This document shows, in pieces, positions 16,045-35,171 of a DNA stretch of 64,000 bases (its first letter is position 1; each line of letters begins with the position of its first letter). The DNA is from Shigella phage Henu12. The notes under the pieces are model-generated. The model saw nothing but the letters and a program-made list of their open reading frames with translations, did no database searches and was not told where the DNA came from. A program made the position numbers and the translations under genes. The stretch lies in the sequence record OQ834936; one strand, given 5' to 3'.

Positions 16045-16108
16045 TGTGGTATCTTCAATAAAAAAGGTGATGCAAGCCTATCAAGACCTACACCACCTTG
16101 TCAACTAC

Positions 16109-18249
16109 TTACATAGATTTTCTATCCTGAATCTCAGCAATTTTTGCATCGTTCATTCTGGAAGTGCCTTTAATCTTAGTCCAGCCAAGATAACCACAAA
16201 CACGGTTAATCACAGAGATATCATGTGAGTTGCACTTAGGACATAATTCAACATCTGCACTTGGACGGTGACCACAATTTTCACAGATTGCTAAATCAAA
16301 GTTAACACCTTGGTAGAAACCTTTACCCATACCTCTTGTCACACAAGCTCTGATAGCTTTATGGTTCTCTGGGTTAGCAATACGAACATATTGGATATGA
16401 CCACCATTACAAGAGTGGAAGAAAGGTTCTTCTAGGTCTTGCTTTTCAAATGGTGTAATATCTGCACCAACATTCATATGGAAGCTGTTTGTGAAGTATT
16501 CTTTATCAGAAACACCTTTAACAACCCCGAACATATTTCTAAACTGCTTCAATTGCGTACCACAAAGACTCTCAGCAGGTGTACCATAAAGTGCATACAG
16601 GAAGCCGTCTTCCTGCTTAAACTGCTCCAGCTTGCTATTCAGATAGCTTAAAACCTTGCTTGCAATATCACCATCAGACTCATGCAATCTTCTACCTTGA
16701 GCAAGCACTGTTAATTCATCTAATGCGGTCACACCAAAAGATGCTGTAAAAGACTTAACAGTGTCCCAACCAATCTTATCAGTTGGCTTCTTATGACCTT
16801 TATACAATCCACCTTGTGTAAATGCTAAAGGGTTAGAACTTGCTGGCATATTAGCAATCATCTCATAACGCTTCTTATGGAAGCTTCGAATCATTTCAAG
16901 GTATTTGTCAAGCTCTTTCCAGAAGTCTAAATCATTCTCTTCAGAGTACTTGTAAATCATCGGCAGATTAAGAGATACTGCACCAATGTTTGCTCTACCT
17001 GTGTAGAACTCTTTACCTTCCTCATCATAGTAAGGAGATAAGAAAGCCCTACAACCCATTGGAGAGATAACTGCACCTGAACGTTCAAAAGCTTCTGCAA
17101 CAGAACCATGACCAGACACACTTAAGAAGTCTGGATACATAGCTTTAGAGCAACACTCAATAGCCTTATCATAAAGCTGCCCCTGCCAAGGGTCTAACAT
17201 ATGTCTTGTTTCATCATAGATATAAACCAGTTTAGGGAACACAACAGGCTTCTTAGATTTACCTTGACCATTCATCCTAACATCTAGAATAGTCTTAGCA
17301 ACCATAAATTGCAAACGGTTATCTTCACTAGCCATGTCTGGTTCAAGTAAACCAAATGTTAATGTTGTGAATGCAAAGTCACCACGACTGCAAGGAACAG
17401 TGTTCAGTTTCATTTCCAAAGATTGGAATCCTTGAGTTAGTTCAATCTGGAGTTGCTCTTTAGCGTAGTGGTATACTTCCTTGCTTGGAATATTATATTG
17501 CTTTGCTTTTTCCAGATGATACTCAAAAGACTTCTTAGCATATGGCACAAGAACCTTGTCAATCTCTGGGATGGTGAATCCTCCAAACTGCTGTGCAGTT
17601 GCTGAAAGTACAACATCACCGATAACCTGTAAAGCTGAGAGTACAGACTTAGGTTCACAGTACTCAATGCCGGACATTTCAAAGCCACCTTTCAGGACAC
17701 TTCCAATGTCAAACAAGCAGCAGTTAATACCCCCGAAGATTAAATCTCTTAAGTCATGGATATAAATAAATCCATCCTCAATAGCTCTTGTTTCTTCTGG
17801 TGTTAAGTGGTACTGCTTAAAGATTTCTTTTGTCAGATACCCACGAATGATTGAACCTTTTGTAGAGATTAAGCTGCTGTCAAAGTTAGCATTCTCACGG
17901 TCACCTAAGAAGAGTGTGTCTTTAGTTTTCTGGTAAAGTTCATCCCAATTCTGTGCAACCTCTTTACGATAGTTTCTGTAGGTTGAGTATGACTCATAGA
18001 TTTCATGGTTTACCTCTGCCAGAGTTCCCTCTACAATACTGTGAACATCATCTACAGAGATGAGCATAGCATTCTGATTAGTTGCTCTGACAAGCAATCT
18101 CATAAAGGCTGATTCAAGAGCGTGAATAACTTCTAGTGGTAACTCTTTGTAGCCAACTCTATTAGCTGACTTGGTAACTGCTTCGACGATTTTATTTACA
18201 TTTGGTTTTTCCAGTGAACCGTCTTTCTTAATAATTTGTACTTTAACCA
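16109..18249 (-). CDS. nrdD: anaerobic ribonucleoside-triphosphate reductase
   Basis: C-terminal glycyl-radical motif RVCGYLG; start set at MVKVQIIKKDG with AGGAG RBS (track start 18319). Confidence 0.9.
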
Positions 18250-18263
18250 TTCTGACTCCTAAT

Positions 18264-18290
18264 GCAAAAAAGGTCTCCGAAGAGACCCTT
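18264..18290 (-). terminator. intrinsic terminator GGGUCUC-UUCG-GAGACC plus U6
   Basis: Hairpin and U-tract immediately upstream of the nrdD RBS. Confidence 0.7.
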
Positions 18291-18299
18291 ATATTAATT

Positions 18300-18500
18300 C
18301 TACTTAGAAAACTTTTCAATAAGCTTTTTAAGCTTTCCGCTCAAATCATGTTTGATATCTAATATCTCAAAGATAACCCATACTAACATAGCTCCAAACA
18401 GAGCACCTTGTTTTAAATCAGTAAATAGGCTAGTAACCATGAATGCCAGAGCAATCATCGGAGCATCTTCAACAAAACCATCCCATAAACGTTTAAGCAT
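18300..18500 (-). CDS. small membrane protein (66 aa)
   Basis: ORF track; two hydrophobic segments. Confidence 0.45.
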   Translation of the reverse strand: MLKRLWDGFVEDAPMIALAFMVTSLFTDLKQGALFGAMLVWVIFEILDIKHDLSGKLKKLIEKFSK

Positions 18501-18735
18501 TATTCACCTCTGCCATAAAGTTTTGTAGTGTTCCAACAGGTTTCATTTCATTATCTTCAACCTTCATAATGAAAGGCATCTGACGAACAGGTATCTTTGC
18601 AATATCCATCAGGTCACTTAGCTCATAATCTTTCCCAAGCATTCTAACAACATGGTCTAAGCCACGAGCCTGAGCAAAGTTCTTAGCAGTCACACACTGT
18701 GGGCATCCATCTTTTGAGTAAATTACATAAGTCAT
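18493..18735 (-). CDS. nrdH: glutaredoxin-like protein (NrdH-like)
   Basis: CPQC active-site motif near the N-terminus; 80 aa; next to nrdB. Confidence 0.7.
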   Translation of the reverse strand: MTYVIYSKDGCPQCVTAKNFAQARGLDHVVRMLGKDYELSDLMDIAKIPVRQMPFIMKVEDNEMKPVGTLQNFMAEVNNA

Positions 18736-19808
18736 TAAGGAACCTCTAAAAATCCTGAATTTAAATCATCAACAACAGTATTCAAAAGATACGCACCATT
18801 TTGTTGTTCTTGGTTAGCGTTTTGCTCTTTATCAATTTCCATCTTCTTAATCATATATTTCAAAGGTGGTTCTTTAGGAGCTACGAAGTCTCTTGGAATA
18901 CCAAACATATCATACAATGGAGCAGCGTTGTAGTAAACCCATTCGTGAAGAAGTTTTGTATTTAAACCTACAACAGCACGTCCTTCAGAGAAAATATAAT
19001 AAGACCATTTCTCTTCACTTTCAACTACCTCATCCAGAATTACTTTAATTTCTGGGAGTACTTGACGGAAAGCTTCTTGCCACTCTTCATCTTTCAAAGT
19101 TTCTTTTAATGCTTCGATATCAATCTTTGTGTGAATGATTTCGTCAAGCATAATTTTCTGTACTGCTTGTGCAATCCCTTGGAACTTATCTTGTGCATCA
19201 AGTGCAAAGGTACATGCAAAGGATGCCATGAAGGAAATACCCTCAAGTGCTGTTACTGCAAAGAGACCTTTTAAGATTACTTTGTGGAAGTGTAAAGGGT
19301 CTTTCTCCATTAGCTCTTGACGAACATATCTTAAACGATAGTTAATACCTTCGTCAAGAAGTTCTGCCAGTGCTCTGTTCACAGTCTTCAATCTGTCCTG
19401 AACAGCAGCGTTCTGGTTAATCTCATCAAGGATTGTTTCAGGGTTCTTGATACACTGACGAACAATCTCTGAATAAGTTAGTGCATGAAGGTTCTCAATT
19501 TCTGATTGCTTCATGATAGCAGTTGCATAGATATCATCAGAGATGAATGGTGCAAATGCAAAAGCTAAACTCTTAGCAACCTGTGTATCTGCTTCCCATT
19601 GCCATTTCAGAATCTCAAGCATTACACCAGACATTGATTGAGGGACACTCTCAAAGTCTAAACGTGACTGTTCAAATGGGAACTCATCTTCAGACCAGTC
19701 TTGTGCTTTCTGCTGCTTATACAGTTCAAAGATTTTTGGATAGTGTTTATTCAGTGAGTCGAAAGTTTTTCGTTCACCGCCTAAGAAAATTGGATGTGGA
19801 TTAATCAT
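18735..19808 (-). CDS. nrdB: ribonucleotide reductase class Ia beta subunit
   Basis: 357-aa protein with R2-family character by my recognition; directly downstream of nrdA. Confidence 0.88.
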   Translation of the reverse strand: MINPHPIFLGGERKTFDSLNKHYPKIFELYKQQKAQDWSEDEFPFEQSRLDFESVPQSMSGVMLEILKWQWEADTQVAKSLAFAFAPFISDDIYATAIMKQSEIENLHALTYSEIVRQCIKNPETILDEINQNAAVQDRLKTVNRALAELLDEGINYRLRYVRQELMEKDPLHFHKVILKGLFAVTALEGISFMASFACTFALDAQDKFQGIAQAVQKIMLDEIIHTKIDIEALKETLKDEEWQEAFRQVLPEIKVILDEVVESEEKWSYYIFSEGRAVVGLNTKLLHEWVYYNAAPLYDMFGIPRDFVAPKEPPLKYMIKKMEIDKEQNANQEQQNGAYLLNTVVDDLNSGFLEVP

Positions 19809-20080
19809 TCTGGTAAGATTCCTGTATCTAGAAAGTTTCTGGCTTCAGTTGTTGTCATAACAACCCATTTGTCCTTGTTGAACATATCAAGTGGTCTTGC
19901 ATATGTTTGCTTTGGATTAAAACAATCAACATATCGTATATGTTCTTTCCAAGAACCATCTGGCATCTTAACTTTTAAGTCTAAGTCTGCAATATAATAC
20001 AAAGACCGTCTTGGAATATAAAATAAATATAGTGAGTTATCTTTGCTACGTATTCTCGCATTGCGAATTAAATCTAGCAT
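19805..20080 (-). CDS. hypothetical protein between nrdA and nrdB
   Basis: Start set at internal Met with GGAGAAAGG RBS (track start 20188 overlaps nrdA). Confidence 0.45.
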   Translation of the reverse strand: MLDLIRNARIRSKDNSLYLFYIPRRSLYYIADLDLKVKMPDGSWKEHIRYVDCFNPKQTYARPLDMFNKDKWVVMTTTEARNFLDTGILPE

Positions 20081-20103
20081 ACCTTTCTCCAAGTTAATTT
20101 TAG

Positions 20104-20123
20104 AGGGTCTTTTACGACCCTCA
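20104..20123 (-). other. stem-loop GAGGGUC-loop-GACCCUC between nrdA and the downstream gene
   Basis: 7-bp perfect inverted repeat; no clear U-tract. Confidence 0.35.
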
Positions 20124-20135
20124 TAGTTATTCAAA

Positions 20136-22370
20136 CTAAACGCCACAACCCTCACAGTAGGCATCTTGTAGTGCTGATTTACCAACACCGATACGACTGT
20201 TAAGGTAGTACATAGTTTTCAAACCAACAAGGTTTGCATAAATCATGTACTTCAAAGCTTGCTCTAATGATACCTTCTTAGACTTCGAGTAGTCAACATA
20301 GAAATCTGAAGAGATAGCTTGACCAGTGAATTTTTGAACAATTGCATAGCAATCAATCATATCAAATGTGTCAATACCCCAAGCAATTTCATATACATAC
20401 TTCAACTCTTCATAATCAGGTACAATAAACAGAACGTTACCAGTTGCAGACTTCTTAGTTAAGATGAAGTCACGAATAGGGTACAGACCGTTTGTTGTGT
20501 TAGTTGCCAGAGAAGAACTCTCATTAGGCATGTAAGCCTCTAACACAGAGTTACGGATTCCTCCATTTTCTTTGATTCGCTGTGACAGGTCGTCCCAATC
20601 ATAACGAAGTTTTGCATCGTGCTTTTCATCAATTTTCTTGTTAGCAGTCTTAGGTGGAACCCAACCATCAGGGTACTTAGTAAACTGCATGTACTCTGGT
20701 ACACCACGCTCTTTTGCGAGTCTTAAAGATGCTTCATGCAAGAAGTAAGAGTGCATCTCAGCCAACTCATGAAGTTTAGTTTTACCAGCCCTTGATGAGT
20801 AGTTCACATAGTTCTTCGCAAGGTAGTGAGCCACATTAGTAAGGCCAATACCAACAGAACGACGCTTCTGAACATGGTTACGCATCGACGGATACGGATA
20901 ATCCATAAGGTCAATAACGGAGTCAACCATTGCCAGAGCATAATAAGCAACGTCAGCGTATTCATCTTCTGAGATTCTCCCTGCAACCAAACTAGCTAGG
21001 AAGCAAAGAGCAACTTCACCGTCTTCTTTCTTGGCTGTGTAGCTATACAGGTCTCTTTCATCCTCAAAACCGTGAACTGGTAAGACAATCTCCATACACA
21101 GGTTTGACATTTTCAAAGGCTCTTTGAAAGGTGTATGATAGTTTGCGTTGTTAGTAAAGAACGGGTAAACACGTCCTGTAGCATAACGTTGTTGAATAAA
21201 CAACTTGGCAACTTCACGAGCCTTTACACGTTTATGTTTAACACCTGTATGAACTGCGTGACCTACTGCCATAGCAAATTCATCAGCACTTGCTGTGTAG
21301 AACATGTCATACAGTCTTGGTGCATCTTTGTAAGAGAATAGCAACCAATCTGTATCGTACTGTACACATTGCCAGAAGTAATCATTTGCACCAAATGAGT
21401 AATCCATTTCATTAATACGCTTTGCAGGAACCGTTGTAGGGTGCTTCAAGCGTAGCAAATCCTCAATCTGTGGGTCTAATGCAGTGAAGAAGTTATTAGC
21501 TGAACCACCACGACTCTTCTGCTTATTAGCCTCTACAGCAGCACGTACAAGCTTATAATAAGGGAGTTTTCCCATATGCTCAATAGTGTTTTGTCGGATT
21601 CCATCACCAATTGTTCTGGTCTCCATCAGCATACCAATACCTGCTTGCTTAGTGGTCATGTCATAAGCTACTTTTGTAGCAATGCCAAGAGATTCAGCAG
21701 TATCATTTGCTTTAATTAGGCAGCAAGAAGCATAGCCAGATTTTGTAGCTCTCAGACCGTTCAGGTACGGTGTAGGAGCATTAATCTTCAGGTCAGATAG
21801 ATATGTGTAGAGCTTAATAACATCATCTAAACGACGCTGTTTAGGCTGTCTTTCAAAGGCTTTCATAGCCATACCCATGAACATAAACTGTGGAGACTCA
21901 AACAGTTTACCACTTTTAATATCACGAATGCCGTATTTATCACGGAACTGTTTCAGTACTGCATAACCGTATGAGATATCTTTTGAGTGAACGATGTGAC
22001 CTTGTAAATAGTCAATTTCTTCAGGTGTATAATCCATGTGCTCCCAAAGTCCCATCTGTTCCATCTTCATCACGAATGGAAGTAGCTGAGGAACCTTTGT
22101 AAATCCACCAAAAGCTTCTTTGTAGATAATGCCAAGAAGTAGTCTCCCAGCCATATCAGAGTACTCTTGAGTTTGTTTATCAATACAAACGTCAATCATA
22201 GCTTGGTGCATTTCTTTTGTTGTGCAACCTTCATAGACACGCTTCATAGCTTCCATTACAACCTCTGACCAGATAATTCCTCTCTTGTCAGCCCATGAAG
22301 CCCATTTATTTAAACGTTCTGGTTCGAATGGTACGATTGTACCGTCTGATTTGCGAATAGTAGTAATCAT
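20136..22370 (-). CDS. nrdA: ribonucleotide reductase class Ia alpha subunit
   Basis: 744 aa; C-terminal CxxC (YCEGCGV); N-terminal ATP-cone-like region. Confidence 0.92.
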   Translation of the reverse strand: MITTIRKSDGTIVPFEPERLNKWASWADKRGIIWSEVVMEAMKRVYEGCTTKEMHQAMIDVCIDKQTQEYSDMAGRLLLGIIYKEAFGGFTKVPQLLPFVMKMEQMGLWEHMDYTPEEIDYLQGHIVHSKDISYGYAVLKQFRDKYGIRDIKSGKLFESPQFMFMGMAMKAFERQPKQRRLDDVIKLYTYLSDLKINAPTPYLNGLRATKSGYASCCLIKANDTAESLGIATKVAYDMTTKQAGIGMLMETRTIGDGIRQNTIEHMGKLPYYKLVRAAVEANKQKSRGGSANNFFTALDPQIEDLLRLKHPTTVPAKRINEMDYSFGANDYFWQCVQYDTDWLLFSYKDAPRLYDMFYTASADEFAMAVGHAVHTGVKHKRVKAREVAKLFIQQRYATGRVYPFFTNNANYHTPFKEPLKMSNLCMEIVLPVHGFEDERDLYSYTAKKEDGEVALCFLASLVAGRISEDEYADVAYYALAMVDSVIDLMDYPYPSMRNHVQKRRSVGIGLTNVAHYLAKNYVNYSSRAGKTKLHELAEMHSYFLHEASLRLAKERGVPEYMQFTKYPDGWVPPKTANKKIDEKHDAKLRYDWDDLSQRIKENGGIRNSVLEAYMPNESSSLATNTTNGLYPIRDFILTKKSATGNVLFIVPDYEELKYVYEIAWGIDTFDMIDCYAIVQKFTGQAISSDFYVDYSKSKKVSLEQALKYMIYANLVGLKTMYYLNSRIGVGKSALQDAYCEGCGV

Positions 22371-22389
22371 TATATTAAATCCTACAGGT

Positions 22390-22416
22390 GAAAAAGGGTC
22401 TCCGAAGAGACCCCTT
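22390..22416 (-). terminator. intrinsic terminator GGGGUCUC-UUCG-GAGACCC plus U5
   Basis: Hairpin and U-tract upstream of nrdA. Confidence 0.7.
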
Positions 22417-22421
22417 AGAGA

Positions 22422-22757
22422 TTAAATGCTAAAAATCTTTTTACTTACCCAGAGTTCAACGAACTTCTGTGATACTTTTGTCAGTGAACCTTTAGACATT
22501 GCATTCATGTACCAGTAACGTTTACCTTCATCGAATGCCATGTCAAGTTTTTCACTAACATCATCTTCAAGTCGTGCAATTGAGAAGTTGCCACGTACTT
22601 TGCAGACAACACGACCAAATTTGATATCACTGCGACCTTTGCAATCTTCAGTGTACATTACAAAGTCACCATGACGGAGTGTCTCACCAAACTTATCAGT
22701 GCCTAATTCTTCGCCAGATTTAATTTCTTCTTTAGTTAACTTTTTAGCTTTAGACAT
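22422..22757 (-). CDS. hypothetical protein (111 aa)
   Basis: ORF track. Confidence 0.5.
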   Translation of the reverse strand: MSKAKKLTKEEIKSGEELGTDKFGETLRHGDFVMYTEDCKGRSDIKFGRVVCKVRGNFSIARLEDDVSEKLDMAFDEGKRYWYMNAMSKGSLTKVSQKFVELWVSKKIFSI

Positions 22758-23076
22758 GGTATCTATCCAAGTTTCGTTTCAAGTAAATCCACTGGTCATC
22801 TGTGCGCTCTACACCCATGAACAGGGGGGCTACAACAACTTTACCAAAAGTATTTCTGTGCTGGCAAATCTCGTAAGAGTACGGTTTATCAATATTCAGC
22901 CCATACTTATACAACACTGCTGCTAATACTTGTTCATTATCCAGAATCGTTTCTGGCTTCTCTCCGTACTTGTCTAACAGTGAATCATTCATAAACACTG
23001 TCATAGAGAGGTTGTAGTTGGAGAAGTGGCTTTTTGCCACCACTTCTTCACCTTTATTAATGTTCTGTGAATCCAT
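22750..23076 (-). CDS. hypothetical protein (108 aa)
   Basis: ORF track. Confidence 0.45.
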   Translation of the reverse strand: MDSQNINKGEEVVAKSHFSNYNLSMTVFMNDSLLDKYGEKPETILDNEQVLAAVLYKYGLNIDKPYSYEICQHRNTFGKVVVAPLFMGVERTDDQWIYLKRNLDRYHV

Positions 23077-26077: not shown

Positions 26078-26096
26078 ACGTCTGTACAGGGCTTTG
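26066..26096 (-). terminator. putative intrinsic terminator (AAGCCC...GGGCUU plus U5)
   Basis: Hairpin with 14-nt loop and U-tract downstream of the SSB candidate. Confidence 0.45.
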
Positions 26097-26112
26097 TAGT
26101 AGTTACTGACTA

Positions 26113-26973
26113 TTACTCGTCGTCAGTTTCGAAATCATCTTCGTCGTCATCATCTGGGTTTGGCAGGTCGTCGTCATCGTCATCACCACCTTTACCTTCA
26201 TCACCAGAATCTTTTGCATCTTCTTCAGTGATTTCACCGTTGTCTTCAACACCTGCAAGACCAAGCATTGCCAGTTCATCTTCATCCAGTTCAGTCTCAG
26301 TAGCACCACCAGTACCACCAGTGTAAGGAACCAGAGTATCAATGATAAATTGTTCCTGAATTGGCTTGGTCAGAACGTTACCTTCAAATGTGTAGAAGTG
26401 AGTCGCCAGAATCACACTACCAAATGAACCGTTACCAACTGCAATATCTGGATGAATTACATCGTAAGTCTTATCATCATCGTGCTTATCAGATTTTGCT
26501 GCCTTGATTTTCTTCATAGGCTGCTTAACTGCAACACGCTTACCGTTGATTTCTTCAACCAGCATTACAGGGAAACTCTGTTTTGCTGACCACACAGCAC
26601 CGTCTTTATATGCTGCTGAACGGCTAACCTTCAGGATGTGATAGGTGTCAGCTTCAAACGGAGGCTCACAACCAAACTTCTCTTCGAAGTCATCTGCATC
26701 AACAGCCTCTGTAGTAACTTTATCCCAACCTTCAGGACTCTTTTTAGACTTGGTGAACTCTTTAAAGAGCTTGTTACCATCTTTTGCCAGAATTGAAACG
26801 CTGTAGTTACAATCTTTGCCCGGAAAATGCTTATCCACAGATTTACCCTTTTGAGGACGTGGAATAGTGTTCAGGTAATAGAACCAAACATCTTTCAGCA
26901 GGTAACGAAGAGTCTCACGTTCTTGACCATTGTACTTCTCTACCGGAGCTTTCATTTTAACAACTTTAGACAT
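26113..26973 (-). CDS. putative single-stranded DNA-binding protein (T7 gp2.5-like, acidic C-terminal tail)
   Basis: C-terminus GDDDDDDLPNPDDDDEDDFETDDE; sits among T7-type replication genes. Confidence 0.5.
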   Translation of the reverse strand: MSKVVKMKAPVEKYNGQERETLRYLLKDVWFYYLNTIPRPQKGKSVDKHFPGKDCNYSVSILAKDGNKLFKEFTKSKKSPEGWDKVTTEAVDADDFEEKFGCEPPFEADTYHILKVSRSAAYKDGAVWSAKQSFPVMLVEEINGKRVAVKQPMKKIKAAKSDKHDDDKTYDVIHPDIAVGNGSFGSVILATHFYTFEGNVLTKPIQEQFIIDTLVPYTGGTGGATETELDEDELAMLGLAGVEDNGEITEEDAKDSGDEGKGGDDDDDDLPNPDDDDEDDFETDDE

Positions 26974-27024
26974 TTTAATACCTCTTTCTCAAATTAACTT
27001 TCAACTCAACTATCAAGGAGTACA

Positions 27025-27053
27025 ATCTTACAGACTTCGTACTCCCTTGTCAA
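27025..27053 (-). promoter_or_regulatory. sigma70-like promoter TTGACAAGG-N-TAAGAT upstream of the SSB candidate
   Basis: -35 at 27053-27048, 17-nt spacer, -10 at 27030-27025. Confidence 0.45.
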
Positions 27054-27058
27054 ACACT

Positions 27059-29437: not shown

Positions 29438-29630
29438 TCACACCTCTTCGTTGTAGTTCTGCCTTAAGACCGTTTTCAATCTTATCAAGCTCATGGATTT
29501 CTTCTGCAATCTCTTTCCTTCTTGAAGCGACCCTTTCAAGTCGCTCCATCATAACTTCTTTGGAAAGAGATGAGAGTTCCACTGTACGGTGGTCAATTAC
29601 TTTAAAGTTATTATCTCTCATCTTCAACAC
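29430..29630 (-). CDS. small coiled-coil protein (66 aa)
   Basis: ORF track. Confidence 0.4.
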   Translation of the reverse strand: MLKMRDNNFKVIDHRTVELSSLSKEVMMERLERVASRRKEIAEEIHELDKIENGLKAELQRRGVNG

Positions 29631-29633
29631 CTT

Positions 29634-30374
29634 TTATAGATTGATAATGGTTTTAAGTTTACTCTCTAACTCTTCCATCGTTCCGTTATTCTGGATAATA
29701 TCACGGGAGAAGTTAGTGGAGATACCTTTTTCAGAACTGTGTGACGCAACCTGAATAGCATTGTTTCTGGTCACCTCAATTATCTGACTATCATAACTCT
29801 GAAGAAACTCTGCTTCAAGGTCAAATCGTAAATCACATATTAGAGCAATACCTATATGAGACTTGTTATGACATTCTCCAAAGAATGATTCCATTCTCTC
29901 AGCAAGGTCTCTTATCCAGAACTTCTCACCTAACACTTTACGGACAACTTCACTACCCCATATCTGCTGGATTTGGCGTGATGAGAATATGTACTCTTCT
30001 TTTAAACCGAGCCTTGTTTTGAAAGTCGGTTTAGCCACCTTCTTAATTTCAGTGATAAGTTTATCTGCAATTTCACCACACAATTTATCATCACTGTGGA
30101 TACCTTTGTCTTTCATAATTTTGTAGAAAGCCCACTTAACTTTTTGTAATACTTCTGAGAATGTCAAGTCAAACTTTTTAGGAGTTTCCTTTGTTGCCCC
30201 ATACAGGTCTTGCCAATCCAAATCAAAGATGAATCCAGCAGTTGCTTTTAAGTTGTCTGCAAACGCAAAAACTTTAACAGTATAGCCAGAGTCAATCAAG
30301 AGGTTTTTCACAAGTGTGCATGATGTATCTTTTCCAGAGCGAGCCTTTCCAGTGAATGCAATTACTGATTTCAT
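29634..30374 (-). CDS. deoxynucleoside monophosphate kinase (T4 gene 1-like)
   Basis: P-loop AFTGKARSGKDT and C-terminal NNGTMEELESKLKTI resemble T4 dNMP kinase. Confidence 0.7.
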   Translation of the reverse strand: MKSVIAFTGKARSGKDTSCTLVKNLLIDSGYTVKVFAFADNLKATAGFIFDLDWQDLYGATKETPKKFDLTFSEVLQKVKWAFYKIMKDKGIHSDDKLCGEIADKLITEIKKVAKPTFKTRLGLKEEYIFSSRQIQQIWGSEVVRKVLGEKFWIRDLAERMESFFGECHNKSHIGIALICDLRFDLEAEFLQSYDSQIIEVTRNNAIQVASHSSEKGISTNFSRDIIQNNGTMEELESKLKTIINL

Positions 30375-30384
30375 TGTGTATCTC

Positions 30385-30418
30385 CATAATAAAAAGCCCC
30401 CAATTAAGGAGGCTTAAA
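30385..30418 (-). terminator. putative intrinsic terminator (AGCCUCC...GGGGGCU plus U-tract)
   Basis: 7-bp stem with one G-U pair, followed by UUUUAUUAU. Confidence 0.45.
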
Positions 30419-30430
30419 AGTTAATAACTG

Positions 30431-31225
30431 TTACTGCAAGCGAGCACCAGACAGTTCACGTTCAGCCATGCTGTCTAACTGTTCAACAAACTCATCACCA
30501 AAGTTGATTGCCAGCTTAGTACTCAGTACTGCTGCACCAGTTTGCGTGAAGACTTCGTTAAGTGCTTTTGAGTGAGCACCTTGAGAGATTTCTTCAACAA
30601 ACGCAGGGTCTGCTTCAAGCATCTTAGAAACCTCTAAGAGAGCATGGATACCCATAATGCTGAAGATTGCATTGAGCATTGAAGTTAATTGAACCTGAAC
30701 AGGATTCATTTCAATATCTTCACTAATCTCAACAAGACGCTTCATAGTCTCTTCAGTGAGAGTCAGAACTCGTTCAGAGATTTCTTCAAAGCCCCAATCC
30801 AGTTTTGCATAACGTGGAGCTTGGTCACTCATACGTTTTTCAAGTGAAGCCATTACAGATGCAACAGATGCACAGATACACTTCATGATTTCTGCATCAG
30901 ACATGTTATCAAGTTCTTTGATACCAGCTTCAGTCATCTGGATATAACCACCAGAATACATCTCTGCAAATACGTATGCAGCAAAGGCATCAACACCAAT
31001 TGCAATGGTTTTCAAAGCAACTGTCTGGTTACTCAGAAGATATTCAACCTCTTTACGGAAATCTTCGTCATTCTCTACAGCGTTTTTTACAACACGCAGA
31101 GATTCAGGGATAAATTTTCCTGACAGTGAGTTGCTACGCATAATGATAGCAAGAGTCTCAACAGTGTTCAGCATGAATGCTTCGTCAATACCTTTTTCTT
31201 CCAGAATCTCATTTACAGTTTTCAT
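30431..31225 (-). CDS. hypothetical protein (264 aa)
   Basis: ORF track. Confidence 0.5.
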   Translation of the reverse strand: MKTVNEILEEKGIDEAFMLNTVETLAIIMRSNSLSGKFIPESLRVVKNAVENDEDFRKEVEYLLSNQTVALKTIAIGVDAFAAYVFAEMYSGGYIQMTEAGIKELDNMSDAEIMKCICASVASVMASLEKRMSDQAPRYAKLDWGFEEISERVLTLTEETMKRLVEISEDIEMNPVQVQLTSMLNAIFSIMGIHALLEVSKMLEADPAFVEEISQGAHSKALNEVFTQTGAAVLSTKLAINFGDEFVEQLDSMAERELSGARLQ

Positions 31226-31649
31226 CTTTAATCTCTCTCATTTTGTTAATAGTAAGTCGTGATAATCTTAAGCTTTCTTGTGAAGAGAAGTCAAGTCCTT
31301 TTTCAGACCGTGGGAAGTAATTTCTGTCCCACGTATTCTCTGCATCCTGAAGCAGTTGGGATAGACTATCTAAGTCCGTTCCATTTTGCAACTTATTTTT
31401 TAAGGTATCTATCAAAAAGATTGTGTCTTTCGCTTTACGTCTTTCTGAAGATATCTCTTTCATGTGCTCAAATACAGAACACTTTAAACCTTCGTCGTAT
31501 CCACTTGATAGTTCTATCTCATGCTGAACATCAACCATTCGACGATGTTGATAAGCATACTCCTTCTGAGCCTCGATGTAAAGTGCTTCAACTCTTTCTA
31601 AAGCTTGGACAAGGTTATTGATATCTGGGTGAACGTACATCCTCTGCAT
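31209..31649 (-). CDS. hypothetical protein (146 aa)
   Basis: ORF track; first gene of the minus block after the divergent region. Confidence 0.5.
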   Translation of the reverse strand: MQRMYVHPDINNLVQALERVEALYIEAQKEYAYQHRRMVDVQHEIELSSGYDEGLKCSVFEHMKEISSERRKAKDTIFLIDTLKNKLQNGTDLDSLSQLLQDAENTWDRNYFPRSEKGLDFSSQESLRLSRLTINKMREIKDENCK

Positions 31650-31908
31650 GATTGCCTCTGTTAAGTATCTATAAAGATTTTAATCTCTTATCTTTATGTA
31701 TGTTATACATATAACTTTAAAGCTTTTTAAAAGCTATTAAAAATCTTTTAAGACTTTTAAAGAAACTGTATAGTTAATCTATAAAGGGAGTCTATTAAGA
31801 TAAAACCCACTTCGAAAAGACTAACACCTTGTCAAGTAGTTTGTCAACTTGCTTTTTGCAGAAAATTGCTGTAGGGTATTATCCAGAATGATTTGAGAGG
31901 GAGTAAAA
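31650..31908. promoter_or_regulatory. AT-rich divergent intergenic region with short repeats and two TTGTCAA copies
   Basis: Strand-switch point between the minus and plus blocks; near-palindrome AGCTTTTTAAAAGCT. Confidence 0.5.
31855..31882 (+). promoter_or_regulatory. candidate sigma70-like promoter TTTGCA-N16-TATTAT for the DNA polymerase gene
   Basis: Read on plus strand; followed by GAGGGAG RBS and ATG at 31909. Confidence 0.4.
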
Positions 31909-34608
31909 ATGGACAATGTAGATTTCGAAAAATTACATTTGGTTGGTGATACAGAAACTGATGGGTTGCTCCTTGAGTTTACAAAAGCACACGTAATGGC
32001 TTTCGCAGACTATAAAGATGACAGTGATGAACCTGCTGTGTGGGTTTTCACTGATGAGCCTATTCTTGGTCACAAGTATACAAAATACATCAAAGGTGGT
32101 CTGCGTGAAGGTGTTGAGTTTGCACTGAAAGCTAAACGTCTTTGTATCCACAATGGTCTTGGTTATGACTGGTGGGTGTTTAATCACATTGCACCTGACC
32201 TGTGGAACTTTGAGAATCCTAAGTGTAAGCCTTGGAGTGACTTCTTTCAGGATTCACTTATCCAATCTCGCGTACAGTGGATGGATAGACCTACACCAAA
32301 AGGTTACAAAGGTGCTCATGGTTTGGCTGCATGGGGTGCTCGTGTTGGTGTTCGTAAACCAGAGATTGAAGAGTGGGGTGTATGGAATGCAGAGATTCTT
32401 ACTCGTGTTGTAGAAGATATTAAGATTAACGCCAAAACTAAACGTGCTCTTGATAATGAGTACCTTAAGCTTAAGAAGTGTGGTGTTGACACTTATGAAA
32501 CCTATATGCGAGCTAAAGAAACATCTTTCTGGATGAGCCAGCAAGCTATCAACGGTTGGAAAGCTGATGTAGAACTTATGCAGTTCCATGTTAAAGAACT
32601 TGACAAGTTAACTAATGAGTTAGCTGCTGAGGTTGAGCCACACCTGCCACCAACTATCAAGACAAAAGGTAAGGTCACAGGTGAAGAGTTTGCTAAGTCT
32701 TGGAATGAGTATGTGGATACATTTGGTCACGTTGACGGCTTAAAAAGGATTACCAAGTACCCTAAGACAAAGTATCGTGAACAGATGCGTGAAGGTGAGT
32801 TGAAGCAATACCCTATCAAGCCATATGGAAAGCCAACTACAAAGATTTTTAACGTTGAGAAACGTAACTGCTACACACCAACTAATACGGTTACCAAAGA
32901 AGAGTACCCTGAAGGTTTCGTAGCAATGAAAGATGCTCGTGCAGTTTGTAATGAACTGAATGAGAAGATTGGGAAGAAGTGTAAAGATTGGAAACCAGTT
33001 AAGACTGTGAAGATTGTGAAGTACTATAATGTGCATGTTGTAAATCACTTCGAGTTGGAGTCAAGTCGCTACACTGGTTTGATTGATGCACCATTCACAC
33101 CAATTGAGTTTGAAGTTTCACGAATGACTCAGGTAGCTGTGGTGAAGGATTACTTAAAATCTGTTGGTTGGATTCCTGATGATTGGAACTACAAAAAAGA
33201 TTCTGATGGTCGTCCGGTTAAGGTTTGCAGATTCAAAGACAACAAAAAGATGATTCGCAAACATCCTAAGTGGGATGAGATGGTTGAGCGTTGTGGGTTG
33301 AACTATATTGAGCATGAAGGTGTCTATTACATCGAGCATAACTGGTCTGTTAAGAAGTACACAGATGTGCTTGAGCCTTGCTTGATTAGGACTTCACCAA
33401 AGCTTACAGAGTCTTCTTATGATACAATCGAAGGTGAGCTTGGACAGAAGATTGCGAAGTACTATACTTTGATGCACCGACGCAGGACTATTGAGAACTC
33501 AAAGGATGATGAGAAAGGTTGGCTGAACCAGATTCGTCCAGATGGTCGTTTGAGTGCAGGTGCAATGGTGTTTGGTACTTCTACTGGACGTATGACTCAG
33601 TATGGTATTGTAAACGTACCTTCTGGTGCTGCTGTTTACGGTGAGCCAATGAGGGCAGTGTGGATTTGTGAAGAGGGAACCAACGTAGTATCTGTTGATA
33701 TGAACTCTGCACAGCTTGTACTACTCTGTAACTTCATGGGTGATAAAGACTTCACCAAAGCGGTAACAGAGGGTAAAGAAGAGATTGAGTTTGTTCGTCA
33801 AGAGGATGGAAGATACTACTGCAAACACTTTGACCAGTATCTGAATCCAGAGATTGACAAGTATCTGCGTTATGACTCTGAAAACGATTTGTACGTAGTT
33901 TACTCAGGGACTGATGCTCACACTCTGAACAGTATCTACTTCAGCCTTAATGATGAGCAAGATATCTTGACTTGTCGTGCTACTCAGGATGAGAATCTTC
34001 TTCATGAGATTAGCAAGGGACGTAAGAAAGCTAAGAATGGTATCTATGCCCTGTTGTTCGGTGCAGGTGATGAGAAGTTTGCTAAAACAATTAAAGCAGC
34101 AACTACTCAGGAAGGTGCATTGACTAAGCAGACTTACTTTGTGCGCTTGCCGAAGATTAAGAAACTGTTAGACAACTTGGAAGCTGATTTCAAAGCAACT
34201 AAGAAAGCACTTGAAGAGGTGTTTGGTAAAACTGCTGCGATAGCTAAAGGTGGTTTTGTGAAGGTTGCTGGAGCTTGGCTGTGGTGTAAGTCTCCACACA
34301 AGCTGTTAAATTACCTTTTGATGGGTTCAGAAAGTCAAGTCCAGAATGAAGCAATTAACCTTGCATGTCGTCGTATGATTGATGAAGGTTTGATGAAGTT
34401 GAATGGTCGTAAACCAGCTATTGGCGCTCGCTTACTCTGTGCTTACCACGACGAAACAAGTTGGGAATGTCCAGAGCACATGACAGCAGATGTGAAAGCA
34501 GTAACTGACTGGTATTATGGTCAAGCATCTAAGAACCTTGGACTAAGGAAAGAAACCTTGGTAACAGGTACTGGTAAAGTTGGTAAGAGCTGGTATGAGG
34601 TACATTGA
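31909..34608 (+). CDS. DNA polymerase, family A (T7 gp5-like) with 3'-5' exonuclease domain
   Basis: DTETDG exo motif; HGLAAWGARVG, YALLFGAGDEK and HDE blocks resemble T7 DNA polymerase. Confidence 0.9.
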   Translation: MDNVDFEKLHLVGDTETDGLLLEFTKAHVMAFADYKDDSDEPAVWVFTDEPILGHKYTKYIKGGLREGVEFALKAKRLCIHNGLGYDWWVFNHIAPDLWNFENPKCKPWSDFFQDSLIQSRVQWMDRPTPKGYKGAHGLAAWGARVGVRKPEIEEWGVWNAEILTRVVEDIKINAKTKRALDNEYLKLKKCGVDTYETYMRAKETSFWMSQQAINGWKADVELMQFHVKELDKLTNELAAEVEPHLPPTIKTKGKVTGEEFAKSWNEYVDTFGHVDGLKRITKYPKTKYREQMREGELKQYPIKPYGKPTTKIFNVEKRNCYTPTNTVTKEEYPEGFVAMKDARAVCNELNEKIGKKCKDWKPVKTVKIVKYYNVHVVNHFELESSRYTGLIDAPFTPIEFEVSRMTQVAVVKDYLKSVGWIPDDWNYKKDSDGRPVKVCRFKDNKKMIRKHPKWDEMVERCGLNYIEHEGVYYIEHNWSVKKYTDVLEPCLIRTSPKLTESSYDTIEGELGQKIAKYYTLMHRRRTIENSKDDEKGWLNQIRPDGRLSAGAMVFGTSTGRMTQYGIVNVPSGAAVYGEPMRAVWICEEGTNVVSVDMNSAQLVLLCNFMGDKDFTKAVTEGKEEIEFVRQEDGRYYCKHFDQYLNPEIDKYLRYDSENDLYVVYSGTDAHTLNSIYFSLNDEQDILTCRATQDENLLHEISKGRKKAKNGIYALLFGAGDEKFAKTIKAATTQEGALTKQTYFVRLPKIKKLLDNLEADFKATKKALEEVFGKTAAIAKGGFVKVAGAWLWCKSPHKLLNYLLMGSESQVQNEAINLACRRMIDEGLMKLNGRKPAIGARLLCAYHDETSWECPEHMTADVKAVTDWYYGQASKNLGLRKETLVTGTGKVGKSWYEVH

Positions 34609-35120
34609 TGCGAGATTGTGGATTCACACATGAACAGTTAAAGTCTTGGTTAAACTATGACCCCGAAACAGGGGTCTTAACGTGGATTGGCAGGCCTCCA
34701 CATAGTAGTAGGGTGGTTATTGGGAGCCAAGCCGGAGCAATCAAGCGCACAAGGTCTGGTGTGTATATGCACACACAGATTTTAGGATACAGGACAGGCA
34801 ATCACCGAATTGCTTGGTTCTGGATGACAGGCAAGTGGCCTGATAAACACATTGACCACAAAGATGGAGATGGTTTGAATAACGCTTGGGACAATCTCAG
34901 GGAGGCCACAAAAGAACAGAACATGTCTAATAGGAGACAACCCAGAACATCAAAAAACTTAAAAGGTACAAGTAGAAGCAAGTCTGGTAAGTGGATAGCC
35001 CAGATTAACCATAATGGCAAGACTATACATATAGGTACATACACAACAGAAGAAGAAGCCCATAAAGCTTACTGTGAAGCTGCTATTAAACTCCACGGAG
35101 AGTTTGCAAAACTAAGTTGA
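34605..35120 (+). CDS. HNH homing endonuclease with AP2-like domain
   Basis: YDPETGVLTW, IDHKDGDGLNNAWDNLREATKEQN and AP2-like C-terminus; ATGA overlap with the polymerase stop. Confidence 0.7.
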   Translation: MMRDCGFTHEQLKSWLNYDPETGVLTWIGRPPHSSRVVIGSQAGAIKRTRSGVYMHTQILGYRTGNHRIAWFWMTGKWPDKHIDHKDGDGLNNAWDNLREATKEQNMSNRRQPRTSKNLKGTSRSKSGKWIAQINHNGKTIHIGTYTTEEEAHKAYCEAAIKLHGEFAKLS

Positions 35121-35171
35121 CAAGGTGCTCATGGAAGAGTACCTTATACTATATCTTGTATAGGAGGTTAC

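What the first reader, a model, noticed from the sequence alone, without database searches (positions are those of the whole stretch)
16094..35118. Recurring extended -35-like motif TTGACAAGG(TG) in several intergenic regions
Seen: TTGACAAGGTG occurs at 35108-35118 (plus strand), 31825-31836 and 16094-16104 (minus-strand reading), and TTGACAAGGG at 27044-27053 upstream of the SSB candidate. An 11-mer recurring three times in 64 kb is far more than chance. Only some copies have a good -10 at the right spacing. Inference: an extended -35 for a subset of early promoters, or a binding site for a phage or host factor.
Basis: seen in the sequence. Interest (0 to 1): 0.4.

Follow-up and report, generated by a model that had tools for sequence, protein, structure and literature searches.

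The report
Promoter-plus-hairpin cassettes in a FelixO1-like phage
The repeated TTGACAAGG(TG) is most likely not one extended promoter signal but a standard host -35 box joined to the first bases of an RNA hairpin, inside small conserved promoter/terminator cassettes of a kind already known from T4-like phages.

Summary
The window is a FelixO1-like myovirus (Ounavirinae, about 94% identical to Citrobacter phage Michonne).

**Observation.** TTGACAAGGTG occurs exactly three times: 16094-16104(-), 31825-31835(-) and 35117-35127(+). TTGACAAGG also occurs at 27045-27053(-) and, by chance, inside nrdD at 17554-17562.

**Significance.** Recurrence alone is weak evidence, because 179 different 11-mers occur at least three times here. 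The real signal is that four of five 9-mer copies lie in the 4.7% of intergenic DNA, all sense to the next gene. The three 11-mers also sit at the same orthologous sites in Felix O1, and two of the three cassettes match about 258 related phage records.

**Interpretation.**
- TTGACA is a sigma-70 -35 hexamer.
- At three of the four sites, AAGG(TG) is the 5' base of an RNA hairpin that starts right after the -35, spans the -10 and ends in CCTT.
- At 16.1 kb the hairpin is the nrdD intrinsic terminator, and position 11 of the motif covaries with its pairing partner.
- In distant relatives (Yersinia, Erwinia phages) the two or three orthologous sites present keep "-35 hexamer + hairpin + -10" but lose AAGGTG.
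- Two cassettes are conserved islands between alternative genes and HNH insertions.

This matches PeSL cassettes of T4-like phages. The 31.8 kb copy has no supported hairpin and is unresolved. No transcription data exist.

The parts
16057..16104 (-). Cassette after nrdD. The -35 TTGACA is at 16099-16104. A 16-bp hairpin has its 5' arm at 16084-16099 (AAGGTGGTGTAGGTCT) and 3' arm at 16064-16079. A T-run follows at 16057-16063. The candidate -10 is TAGGCT at 16075-16080 (18-nt spacer). The next gene's ATG is at 16044.
   Evidence: Terminator scan hit. Sense RNA folds at -23.3 kcal/mol (z -6.2) against -6.6 kcal/mol (z -1.1) for the antisense strand. Pairing holds in 98.7% of cells with one compensatory pair. 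Annotated as a terminator in Michonne. TAGGCT aligns with the TAAGAT -10 of a homologous cassette in Erwinia phage Coenus.
27015..27053 (-). Promoter cassette upstream of the 286-aa gene 26113-26973. The -35 TTGACA is at 27048-27053 and the -10 TAAGAT at 27025-27030 (17-nt spacer). The hairpin arms are 27038-27047 and 27015-27024, so the -10 lies in the loop. There is no T-run.
   Evidence: 10 of 12 promoter match. Fold -14.4 kcal/mol, z -3.6. G-C to A-U compensatory pair in 3 of 8 distinct relatives. TTGACA-17-TAGAAT/TAACAT/TAATAT is kept in relatives although AAGG is not.
31818..31847 (-). Tandem -35-like hexamers in the divergent region between the DNA polymerase gene and the leftward replication genes. 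TTGACA copies are at 31842-31847 and 31830-31835; the second is the 11-mer copy. TGT-TAGTCT at 31818-31826 is a possible extended -10 for the first hexamer (18-nt spacer). A long leader of about 150-170 nt follows, down to the ATG at 31649.
   Evidence: Conserved in 27 of 28 relatives and in Felix O1. No supported secondary structure. A paralogous arrangement exists at Michonne 77.6 kb. The -10 assignment is my inference from the sequence.
31855..31882 (+). Candidate rightward promoter for the DNA polymerase gene (TTTGCA-16-TATTAT), lying back to back with the leftward hexamers.
   Evidence: 9 of 12 match in the promoter scan. Weakly conserved in relatives.
35117..35167 (+). Cassette after the DNA polymerase/HNH genes. 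The -35 TTGACA is at 35117-35122 and contains the HNH stop codon TGA at 35118-35120. The hairpin is AAGGTGCTC (35122-35130) with GAGTACCTT (35137-35145). The candidate -10 is TACCTT at 35140-35145 (17-nt spacer). The SD TAGGAGG is at 35161-35167 and the ATG at 35172.
   Evidence: Fold -12.9 kcal/mol, z -4.6. The 51-nt block is at least 95% identical in 215 of 258 records, while the surrounding 10 kb is 80-90% identical in most. The only variation across the -35 and hairpin stretch is one loop base plus two rare single-base changes; the remaining variable positions lie downstream of the hairpin. Orthologous sites in distant phages are TTGACG-16-TATAAT and TTGACA-17-TATCTT, each with its own hairpin.
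17552..17562 (-). Chance copy TTGACAAGGTT inside the nrdD coding sequence (I-D-K-V).
   Evidence: Present only in Moogleviruses.
7131..7159 (-). Sister cassette without AAGG: TTGACA followed by the GGGGCT-GAAA-AGCCCC hairpin in the spacer, then TAGAAT.
   Evidence: fold z -3.35.
9565..9601 (-). Sister cassette: TTGACA followed by the GTGGCA...TGCCAC hairpin, which encloses an AT-rich -10 region.
   Evidence: fold z -3.55.
10117..10169 (-). Sister cassette: TTGACA-16-TATGAT directly followed by the terminator hairpin AAGAGGCTCC-TAC-GGGAGCCTTTTT.
37975..38035 (+). Sister cassette: TTGACA-16-TATACT (11 of 12 match) enclosed by the CTGACGGGT...ACCCGTCAG hairpin.
   Evidence: fold z -3.1.

Best explanation
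The TTGACAAGG(TG) copies are junctions inside small composite regulatory cassettes. Each cassette holds a host sigma-70 -35 hexamer (TTGACA), immediately followed by the 5' arm of an RNA hairpin (AAGG...). The hairpin spans the promoter spacer and -10 region and closes with ...CCTT.

**Proposed mechanism.** Transcripts arriving from the upstream gene contain both arms. They fold the hairpin and are terminated (16.1 kb, which has a U-run) or attenuated/stabilised (27.0 and 35.1 kb, which have none). RNA polymerase starting at the cassette's own promoter begins inside or beyond the 3' arm, so its transcript lacks the hairpin and reads on into the next gene. The cassettes thereby insulate and re-start transcription units in very little space.

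Because they are conserved islands, they also serve as crossover points where neighbouring genes and homing-endonuclease genes are swapped.

**Shown:** the sequences, the hairpins and their covariation, conservation, the mosaic flanks, and the geometry.

**Inferred:** promoter activity, start sites, termination, and the recombination role.

The copy at 31.8 kb fits only partly. It is one of two tandem -35 hexamers in the divergent early control region, with no supported hairpin.
For: **Hairpins abut the hexamer.**
- The 48 nt after intergenic, sense-oriented TTGACA copies fold at a mean of -13.0 kcal/mol. All other TTGACA copies average -6.1 (P=0.005).

**The 16.1 kb hairpin is an RNA structure.**
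- It is strand-specific: -23.3 kcal/mol in the sense strand against -6.6 antisense.
- It is followed by a T-run and is called as a terminator.
- Across 14 distinct relatives, 98.7% of cells stay paired. Motif position 11 shows a G-C to A-U double change, and six one-sided changes all keep G-U or A-U pairs.

**The 27 kb site is a promoter with a covarying hairpin.** It reads TTGACA-17-TAAGAT, has a compensatory pair, and loses AAGG in Felix-type phages.

**Distant relatives keep the architecture, not the sequence.**
- Yersinia phage P778, after nrdD: TTGACA + GGGGTTCTGC..GCAGAATCC + T5.
- P778, after pol: TTGACG-16-TATAAT with an ATACAC/GTGTAT stem.
- P778, before the 286-aa homologue: TTGACA-17-TAAAGT within GTGAGGGTA/TACTCTCAC.
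- Erwinia phage Coenus, after pol/HNH: TTGACA-17-TATCTT within GTGTGT/ACACAC.

**Cassettes look related by descent.** The window's 16.1 kb cassette matches the Coenus cassette at a different locus in 35 of about 45 positions (z 4.6). That alignment places TAGGCT opposite TAAGAT.

**Flanks are mosaic.**
- BLAST homology in many relatives starts at the T of TTGACA and ends about 50 nt later.
- All four combinations of upstream (pol end or HNH) and downstream (two alternative genes) flanks exist at 35.1 kb.
- Five alternative downstream genes follow the 16.1 kb cassette.

**The architecture is general in this genome.** Four more cassettes occur in the window. Arrays of 85-nt TTTACA|hairpin|TAAGAT repeats precede the small early ORFs.

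**It matches the published PeSL description.** PeSLs have a sigma-70 promoter, a stem-loop between -35 and -10 or overlapping the -10, an SD and ATG at the 3' end, A3-4G3/C3T3-4 stems, and degraded forms with an intact -35 and stem-loop but no -10 (PMC2839356; PMC4122927).
Against: - No transcription start or 3'-end data exist for any FelixO1-like phage in the library searched, so promoter and terminator activities are predictions.
- The -10 candidates at 16.1 kb (TAGGCT, 18-nt spacer) and 35.1 kb (TACCTT) match only the TAnnnT skeleton.
- The hairpins at 27.0 and 35.1 kb have no U-run, so they are not classical terminators.
- The 35.1 kb stem shows no variation, and therefore no covariation. 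Its near-invariance would also fit sequence-specific recognition.
- The 31.8 kb copy has no supported hairpin.
- Three stems sharing AAGGTG is more than the generic AAGG...CCTT stem base explains. I estimate roughly 1 in 250 if the two extra bases were free.
- Common descent of the three cassettes is only marginally supported (16.1 kb versus 35.1 kb, z 2.6).
Confidence: 0.65

Rival explanations
1. TTGACAAGGTG is a discrete recognition element. It would be a -35 hexamer plus a downstream extension read by a phage-encoded (or host) factor. This would define a delayed-early or middle promoter class in the replication and nucleotide-metabolism module and compensate for weak -10 boxes.
For: - The three exact copies have poor -10 boxes, whereas cassettes without AAGGTG have good ones.
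- All three lie in the replication/nucleotide-metabolism region.
- The 11-mer is nearly invariant at 31.8 and 35.1 kb, and the 31.8 kb copy has no hairpin to explain this.
- The Felix O1 authors found no ordinary promoter in the equivalent divergent region and state that temporal control is unknown.
- A small HTH protein is encoded at 38632-38931.
Against: - At 16.1 kb, 5 of 21 distinct variants change AAGGTG. The change at position 11 is compensated in the partner arm.
- Conservation at 31.8 and 35.1 kb extends well beyond the 11-mer and gives no 11-mer-shaped footprint.
- Orthologous sites in distant relatives lack AAGGTG but keep the hexamer, a hairpin and a -10.
- The paralogue of the 31.8 kb region reads TTGACAAGTGT.
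Confidence: 0.12
2. The sites are only terminators or RNA-stability hairpins. The adjacent TTGACA is not a working -35 at 16.1 and 35.1 kb, making these degraded cassettes of the 'half-PeSL' kind.
For: - The -10 boxes at these sites are weak.
- Michonne annotates the 16.1 kb site only as a terminator.
- Degraded PeSLs with an intact -35 and stem-loop but no -10 are described in T4-like phages.
Against: - TTGACA is conserved in nearly all relatives at both sites, even though the upstream flank is exchanged. A non-functional hexamer would be expected to drift.
- Distant orthologues have full promoters at the same positions.
- Downstream genes change from phage to phage and would need their own promoter after a terminator.
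Confidence: 0.13
3. The conserved blocks are maintained mainly as DNA-level sites: homing-endonuclease targets, recombination linkers or protein operators (DNA palindromes). They would not be transcription signals.
For: - HNH genes are inserted immediately upstream of both the 16.1 and 35.1 kb cassettes in subsets of phages.
- The flanks are mosaic.
- The 35.1 and 27.0 kb inverted repeats fold almost as well on either strand.
Against: - The two HNH proteins are unrelated (E=2.7), so one shared target is unlikely.
- The cassettes are equally conserved in genomes without HNH genes.
- The 16.1 kb repeat is strongly strand-specific through G-U pairs, which argues for RNA rather than a DNA palindrome.
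- The AAGG and CCTT half-sites start 33, 31 and 19 nt apart at the three sites (my own count). That is unlike one dimeric operator.
Confidence: 0.06
4. The shared 11-mer is coincidence among unrelated sites.
For: 179 different 11-mers recur at least 3 times in the window. TTGACA and AAGG-initiated stems are both common here.
Against: - Four of five 9-mer copies fall in the 4.7% of intergenic DNA, all in sense orientation.
- The copies are orthologously conserved across the enteric Ounavirinae.
Confidence: 0.04

Closest known systems
PeSL (promoter-early stem-loop) cassettes of T4-like phages (Arbiol et al. 2010, PMC2839356; Comeau et al. 2014, PMC4122927)
   Same: - A sigma-70-type promoter is combined with a stem-loop placed between -35 and -10 or overlapping the -10.
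- The SD and ATG of the next gene lie at the 3' end.
- Stems are of the A-run/G-run ... C-run/T-run type.
- The cassettes sit at insertion, deletion and replacement boundaries between related genomes.
- Arrays occur in front of small early ORFans.
- Degraded forms with an intact -35 and stem-loop but a poor -10 are known.
   Different: - The phage subfamily is different (Ounavirinae, not Tevenvirinae/Straboviridae).
- The TTGACAAGG cassettes are single-copy, orthologous and located in the core replication and nucleotide-metabolism module, not in hyperplastic regions.
- Promoter and terminator activity and mini-circle formation are untested here.
Intrinsic (Rho-independent) terminators
   Same: The 16.1 kb site has a long, stable RNA stem (6 G-C and several G-U pairs among 16) followed by a U-run directly after a stop codon. 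It was annotated as a terminator in Michonne.
   Different: The stem is unusually long (16 bp with several G-U pairs) and is fused to a perfect -35 hexamer. The 27.0 and 35.1 kb hairpins lack the U-run.
T4 middle promoters (MotA box at -30 plus a -10, used with AsiA/MotA) and the PmSL variant in phage nt-1
   Same: The shared idea is a phage-specific promoter class for replication genes with an altered upstream element, sometimes coupled to a stem-loop.
   Different: Here the upstream element is an intact consensus -35, not a TGCTT MotA box. No factor is known, and the extension is not conserved independently of base pairing.
Coupled or overlapping promoter-terminator elements in bacteria (bioRxiv 10.64898/2026.08.19.745784; only the start of the abstract was seen)
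   Same: The shared concept is that initiation and termination signals of adjacent units are physically coupled.
   Different: The paper could not be read, so no detailed comparison was possible.

Membership tests
PeSL-type composite promoter/stem-loop cassette | Sigma-70-like promoter with -35 and -10 hexamers about 17 nt apart | tested here: inconclusive
   The 27 kb site meets this: TTGACA-17-TAAGAT, 10 of 12. At 16.1 and 35.1 kb the -35 is perfect but the -10 is only TAnnnT (TAGGCT at 18 nt, TACCTT at 17 nt). Distant orthologues have good -10 boxes. At 31.8 kb the assignment is uncertain.
PeSL-type composite promoter/stem-loop cassette | Stable stem-loop placed between -35 and -10, or overlapping the -10 | tested here: met
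   Met at 16.1, 27.0 and 35.1 kb: fold z -6.2, -3.6 and -4.6, with covariation. Not met at 31.8 kb.
PeSL-type composite promoter/stem-loop cassette | AT-rich stretch upstream of the -35 | tested here: inconclusive
   Counted by eye. The 20 nt upstream are about 75%, 70% and 60% A+T at 16.1, 27.0 and 35.1 kb, against a 61% genome average. These bases are partly coding. The 31.8 kb site has an AAAAAG tract.
PeSL-type composite promoter/stem-loop cassette | Shine-Dalgarno sequence and start codon of the downstream gene at the 3' end of the element | tested here: met
   The ATG lies 55-80 nt after the first base of TTGACA at 16.1, 27.0 and 35.1 kb. The 31.8 kb site has a long leader of about 150-170 nt instead.
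PeSL-type composite promoter/stem-loop cassette | Located at insertion, deletion or replacement boundaries between closely related genomes | tested here: met
   Homology breakpoints fall at the cassette edges. All four flank combinations exist at 35.1 kb, and five alternative downstream genes follow the 16.1 kb cassette. No such mosaicism was seen at 27.0 or 31.8 kb.
PeSL-type composite promoter/stem-loop cassette | Repeated copies clustered in hyperplastic regions in front of ORFans | tested here: not met
   The TTGACAAGG cassettes are single-copy per genome and lie in the core replication module. The genome does carry such arrays, but of a different cassette (TTTACA|TGGGG hairpin|TAAGAT) at window 230-1340 and Michonne 76-84 kb.
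PeSL-type composite promoter/stem-loop cassette | Demonstrated promoter and terminator activity; mini-circle formation by recombination between cassettes | not testable with these tools
   This needs reporter fusions, in vitro transcription and inverse PCR, as in PMC2839356.
Intrinsic terminator (16.1 kb site only) | G+C-containing RNA stem followed directly by a U-run, downstream of a stop codon | tested here: met
   16 pairs, 6 of them G-C, followed by TTTTATT. The structure is sense-strand specific.
   Position 11 covaries with its partner. AAGG is lost at 27 kb in Felix-type phages. AAGGTG is absent at the orthologous sites of P778 and Coenus.
T4-type middle promoter (MotA-dependent) | MotA box (TGCTT) centred near -30 in place of a -35, with motA/asiA genes in the genome | tested here: not met
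   The sites carry an intact TTGACA and no TGCTT box. The presence of motA/asiA-like genes was not tested.

The most novel reading that the evidence does not exclude
TTGACAAGGTG marks a separate, factor-dependent promoter class. It would be a perfect -35 plus AAGGTG read by a phage protein, with a weak -10, and would time expression of the replication and nucleotide-metabolism genes. FelixO1-like phages have no known transcription regulator and their temporal programme is unexplained. On this reading the tandem copy in the divergent pol/primase control region (31.8 kb) would be its master site.
Probability: 0.1. Interest if true: 0.6.

Novelty: new member of a known kind. Interest (0 to 1): 0.3.

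Why it matters
**For FelixO1-like phages.** These phages are widely used for Salmonella typing, biocontrol and therapy. The original genome paper could not find promoters in the divergent early region. It also left open how transcription passes the many terminators and how timing is controlled.

Recognising that this family uses compact promoter/hairpin cassettes gives concrete, testable positions for transcription starts and stops. It also improves annotation: for example, the annotated start of Felix O1 ORF118 lies inside the hairpin.

**For the PeSL idea.** The result suggests that the 'regulatory cassette as recombination linker' model extends beyond T4-like phages.

**For scanning.** A recurring extended -35 can simply be a -35 hexamer fused to a stem.

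It is not a new kind of element.

Tried and rejected
1. **AGGTG as a Shine-Dalgarno for a leader peptide at 35.1 kb** (ATG GAA GAG ... TAG, 10 codons). Rejected because the ATG is AGG in about a third of relatives.
2. **TATACT at 35146-35151 as the -10.** Rejected because the spacer would be 22-23 nt and the final T is A in many relatives.
3. **A conserved RNA structure at 31.8 kb.** RNAalifold found no compensatory pair and a positive covariation term. The single-sequence fold gave z -0.7.
4. **Known RNA families.** No Rfam hit anywhere in the window.
5. **A shared homing-endonuclease target.** The two HNH proteins next to the cassettes are unrelated.
6. **Literature.** The string TTGACAAGGTG appears only in unrelated primer lists. 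I found no transcript mapping for Ounavirinae. PeSL mentions are confined to T4-like phages and cyanophages. The preprint on promoter-terminator coupling could not be opened.
7. **Felix O1 RT-PCR timing table**. It is too coarse, and ORF94 and ORF118 were not listed, so it could not test the cassettes.
8. **The 'SSB candidate' label for gene 26113-26973.** No Pfam, PDB or functional PHROG hit supports it.
Full report
**Identity of the window.** A 10-kb stretch around the finding is 93-95% identical to Citrobacter phages Michonne and Mordin and to Shigella phages of the genus Mooglevirus. It is 80-90% identical to more than 200 Felixounavirus records. The window is therefore part of a FelixO1-like myovirus (Ounavirinae).

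A simple gene map shows the layout. Leftward genes run from about 31.6 kb down to the window start: primase/helicase, exonuclease, nrdAB, nrdD and others. A rightward unit runs from 31.9 to 42.0 kb: DNA polymerase, an HNH endonuclease, small genes, ligase, DHFR and thymidylate synthase. Structural genes follow. These assignments agree with the Michonne annotation.

**Checking the observation.** TTGACAAGGTG is present exactly three times, at 16094-16104(-), 31825-31835(-) and 35117-35127(+).

The 9-mer TTGACAAGG has two further copies. One is at 27045-27053(-), as reported. The other is at 17554-17562(-), inside nrdD, where it encodes I-D-K-V. That copy is confined to Moogleviruses and is best read as chance.

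179 different 11-mers occur at least three times in this window, against about 50 in Markov shuffles. Location and conservation are the significant features:
- Four of the five 9-mer copies lie in the 4.7% of the window that is intergenic, all pointing toward the next gene.
- The three 11-mers sit at the same three orthologous places in Felix O1 (63544, 79299, 60290).
- They are present in almost all of 28 metagenomic relatives.
- Two of the cassettes each match about 257-258 phage records, once per genome.
- Window plus Michonne 55-84 kb together cover a whole genome, and there is no other copy.

**Anatomy of the 16.1 kb site.** Four bases after the nrdD stop codon comes TTGACA. Overlapping its last A, a 16-bp hairpin begins: AAGGTGGTGTAGGTCT-TGAT-AGGCTTGCATCACCTT. 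TTTTATT follows.
- The fold is -23.3 kcal/mol (z -6.2) on the transcribed strand, but only -6.6 (z -1.1) on the other strand, because it contains several G-U pairs. It is therefore an RNA structure, not a DNA palindrome.
- Michonne annotates it as a terminator.
- In 14 distinct relatives, 98.7% of pair cells remain paired.
- The G at motif position 11 changes to A in two lineages, together with C to T in its partner.
- Six further pairs change on one side only, and always to another allowed pair.

AAGGTG at this site is therefore stem.

**Anatomy of the 27.0 kb site.** This is a good sigma-70 promoter, TTGACA-17-TAAGAT. The arms AGGGAGTACG and TGTACTCCTT flank the -10. In Felix-type relatives the sequence after the hexamer is ATAGAGTA rather than AAGGGAGTA. 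A compensating C to T in the 3' arm accompanies this, and the promoter is kept as TTGACA-17-TAGAAT.

**Anatomy of the 35.1 kb site.** TTGACA, which here contains the TGA stop of the HNH gene, is followed by the hairpin AAGGTGCTC-ATGGAA-GAGTACCTT (z -4.6). The 3' arm contains TACCTT at the canonical 17-nt spacing.
- In 28 relatives the only variation across the -35 and hairpin stretch is one loop base plus two rare single-base changes. The remaining variable positions lie downstream of the hairpin.
- The 51-nt block is at least 95% identical in 215 of 258 records, although the neighbouring coding DNA is mostly 80-90% identical.

**Anatomy of the 31.8 kb site.** This copy is different. It is the second of two TTGACA hexamers 12 bp apart, in the 259-bp divergent region between the polymerase gene and the leftward genes. 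An AAAAAG tract precedes them.
- No fold is supported: single-sequence z -0.7, and no compensatory pair in the alignment.
- One reading from the sequence alone is that the first hexamer pairs with TGT-TAGTCT, an extended -10 at an 18-nt spacer. The GGTG of the 11-mer would then supply the TG.
- A candidate rightward promoter (TTTGCA-16-TATTAT) lies back to back with it.
- The Felix O1 authors reported finding no recognisable promoter in this region.

**The architecture is general in this phage.** Other intergenic TTGACA copies are also followed at once by hairpins that enclose or abut a good -10:
- 7159: GGGGCT-GAAA-AGCCCC, then TAGAAT.
- 9601: GTGGCA...TGCCAC.
- 37975: TTGACA-16-TATACT inside CTGACGGGT...ACCCGTCAG.
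- 10169: TTGACA-16-TATGAT, then a terminator hairpin.

The 48 nt after intergenic sense hexamers fold at a mean of -13.0 kcal/mol, against -6.1 for all other TTGACA copies (P=0.005).

At the left end of the window, and in front of about 15 small ORFs in Michonne 76-84 kb, an 85-nt repeat has the same layout: TTTACA, a TGGGG...CCCCA hairpin with TAAGAT in the loop, then a conserved leader. These are the unexplained '57-bp direct repeats' of the Felix O1 paper.

**Distant relatives separate architecture from sequence.**

Yersinia phage vB_YenM_P778:
- After nrdD: TTGACA + GGGGTTCTGC-TTTC-GGGCAGAATCC + TTTTT. By my own reading, CAGAAT lies 17 nt after the hexamer.
- After the polymerase gene: TTGACG-16-TATAAT with an ATACAC/GTGTAT stem.
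- Before the homologue of the 286-aa gene: TTGACA-17-TAAAGT inside GTGAGGGTA/TACTCTCAC.

Erwinia phage Coenus:
- After polymerase/HNH: TTGACA, again containing the HNH stop, then 17 nt, then TATCTT inside GTGTGT/ACACAC.
- Before the 286-aa homologue: TTGCAA-17-TAAGAT inside a hairpin.

That last Coenus cassette is identical to the window's 16.1 kb cassette at 35 of about 45 positions (z 4.6). The alignment places TAGGCT of the window opposite TAAGAT.

In these phages, intergenic TTGACAAGG is absent, and the few copies found are in coding sequence. The hexamer, the hairpin and the -10 geometry are therefore old. AAGGTG is a lineage-specific stem sequence.

**Mosaic flanks.** In many relatives, BLAST homology to the 35.1 kb region begins exactly at the first T of TTGACA and ends about 50 nt later. 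At 16.1 kb it begins about 11 nt upstream and ends just after the T-run.
- Upstream of the 35.1 kb cassette is either the polymerase stop or an HNH-AP2 endonuclease gene. Downstream is one of two unrelated small genes.
- All four combinations occur, in 9, 7, 5 and 4 genomes.
- The 16.1 kb cassette is followed by five alternative genes. In five relatives it is preceded by a different HNH gene.
- The two HNH proteins are unrelated.

The cassettes thus behave as conserved linkers at which neighbouring modules are exchanged.

**Mechanism proposed.** In each of the three hairpin-bearing cassettes, the whole hairpin lies between the -35 hexamer and the expected start site: about 16068, 27018 and 35152, roughly 7 nt after the -10 (inference).
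- RNA coming from upstream contains both arms. It is terminated at 16.1 kb (U-run present), or at least structured at 27.0 and 35.1 kb (no U-run, so attenuation, pausing or 3'-end protection).
- RNA started at the cassette's own promoter lacks the 5' arm and continues into the next gene.

This answers, in principle, the question raised by the Felix O1 authors of how transcription proceeds past the many terminators. The sequence features, folds, covariation, conservation and mosaicism are shown. Initiation, termination and recombination are inferred.

**Comparison with what is known.** The description of PeSLs in T4-like phages fits closely (PMC2839356; PMC4122927):
- a sigma-70 promoter;
- a stem-loop most often between the -35 and -10 or overlapping the -10;
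- the SD and ATG at the 3' end;
- a terminator function of the stem-loop shown by lacZ assays;
- a location at indel and replacement boundaries;
- stems of the A3-4G3...C3T3-4 type in phage nt-1;
- 'half' PeSLs with an intact -35 and stem-loop but no -10.

The differences are as follows. The phage subfamily is different. The TTGACAAGG cassettes are single-copy and sit in the core replication module rather than in repeated arrays. No functional test exists.

In the searchable library I found no paper applying this concept to FelixO1-like phages or mentioning the 11-mer. That search is not exhaustive.

**What remains unexplained.**
- Three stems sharing AAGGTG exceeds what the generic AAGG stem base predicts. 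Common descent of the three cassettes is only marginally supported.
- The 31.8 kb copy has no hairpin.
- The three exact copies are the ones with weak -10 boxes, and all lie in the replication/nucleotide-metabolism region.

A factor-dependent promoter class therefore cannot be excluded. I give it about 10%.

**Verdict.** The element is a new example, in another phage subfamily, of a known kind of composite promoter/terminator cassette. Interest is modest.

Noticed in passing
window 230-319, 701-784, 1166-1340 (- strand); L030 21445-28470 (Michonne 76-84 kb): About 85-nt repeated cassettes precede small early ORFs. Each has TTTACA, then a TGGGGTTTA...TAAGCCCCA hairpin with TAAGAT/TAGTAT in the loop, then a conserved leader ending CCTAAACTGGAG-N8-ATG. 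They correspond to the unexplained '57-bp direct repeats' of the Felix O1 genome paper and look like a PeSL-type array.
   Followed up: partly
window 1417-1586 and 5907-5915 (- strand): Exact TGTGCAGGT occurs four times, embedded in ATTTnAAAnnTGTGCAGGT(A/T)TAG. The copies at 1503-1511, 1578-1586 and 5907-5915 each directly follow a terminator-like hairpin or T-run; the context of the copy at 1417-1425, inside my called ORF 1341-1463, was not examined. At 5907 it lies in the spacer of TTGAAA-16-TATAAT. This may be a second family of terminator-promoter junctions.
   Followed up: no
L030 22565-22761 (Michonne 77564-77760, outside the window); window 31650-31850: A paralogue of the 31.8 kb control region exists elsewhere in the genome: TTGACA-N7-TTGACAAGTGT...TTCGAGGGGGTTTATCT. 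Both regions, and a roughly 1-kb non-coding stretch at Michonne 75.2-76.2 kb, are packed with 8-mers such as CTTAAAAG, CTTGTTAG, CTATACAG and CTTTATAG. The cumulative GC skew minimum is at about 32 kb. This could be a regulatory hub or a replication origin.
   Followed up: no
window 34608-35120 (+); L006 19995-20531: Free-standing HNH endonuclease genes are inserted immediately upstream of both conserved cassettes in subsets of phages. The window's HNH-AP2 gene ends with its TGA inside the TTGACA hexamer. The same overlap is seen in the distant Erwinia phage Coenus.
   Followed up: partly
L031 21300-21475 (Felix O1 79299-79474): The annotated start of Felix O1 ORF118 ('membrane protein', 79310) lies inside the terminator hairpin. 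The ATG about 30 nt further downstream, conserved in relatives, is the more likely start.
   Followed up: no
window 26113-26973 (-): The 286-aa 'SSB candidate' downstream of the 27 kb promoter has no Pfam or PDB sequence match and belongs to a PHROG of unknown function. The SSB label is unsupported by sequence. No structure prediction was attempted.
   Followed up: partly
window 42018-42041: A symmetric hairpin, AAGGCTCC...GGAGCCTT, sits between the convergent thymidylate synthase unit and the lysis/tail unit. It looks like a bidirectional terminator, though only the minus-strand reading is followed by a T-run, and it is conserved in Coenus.
   Followed up: no
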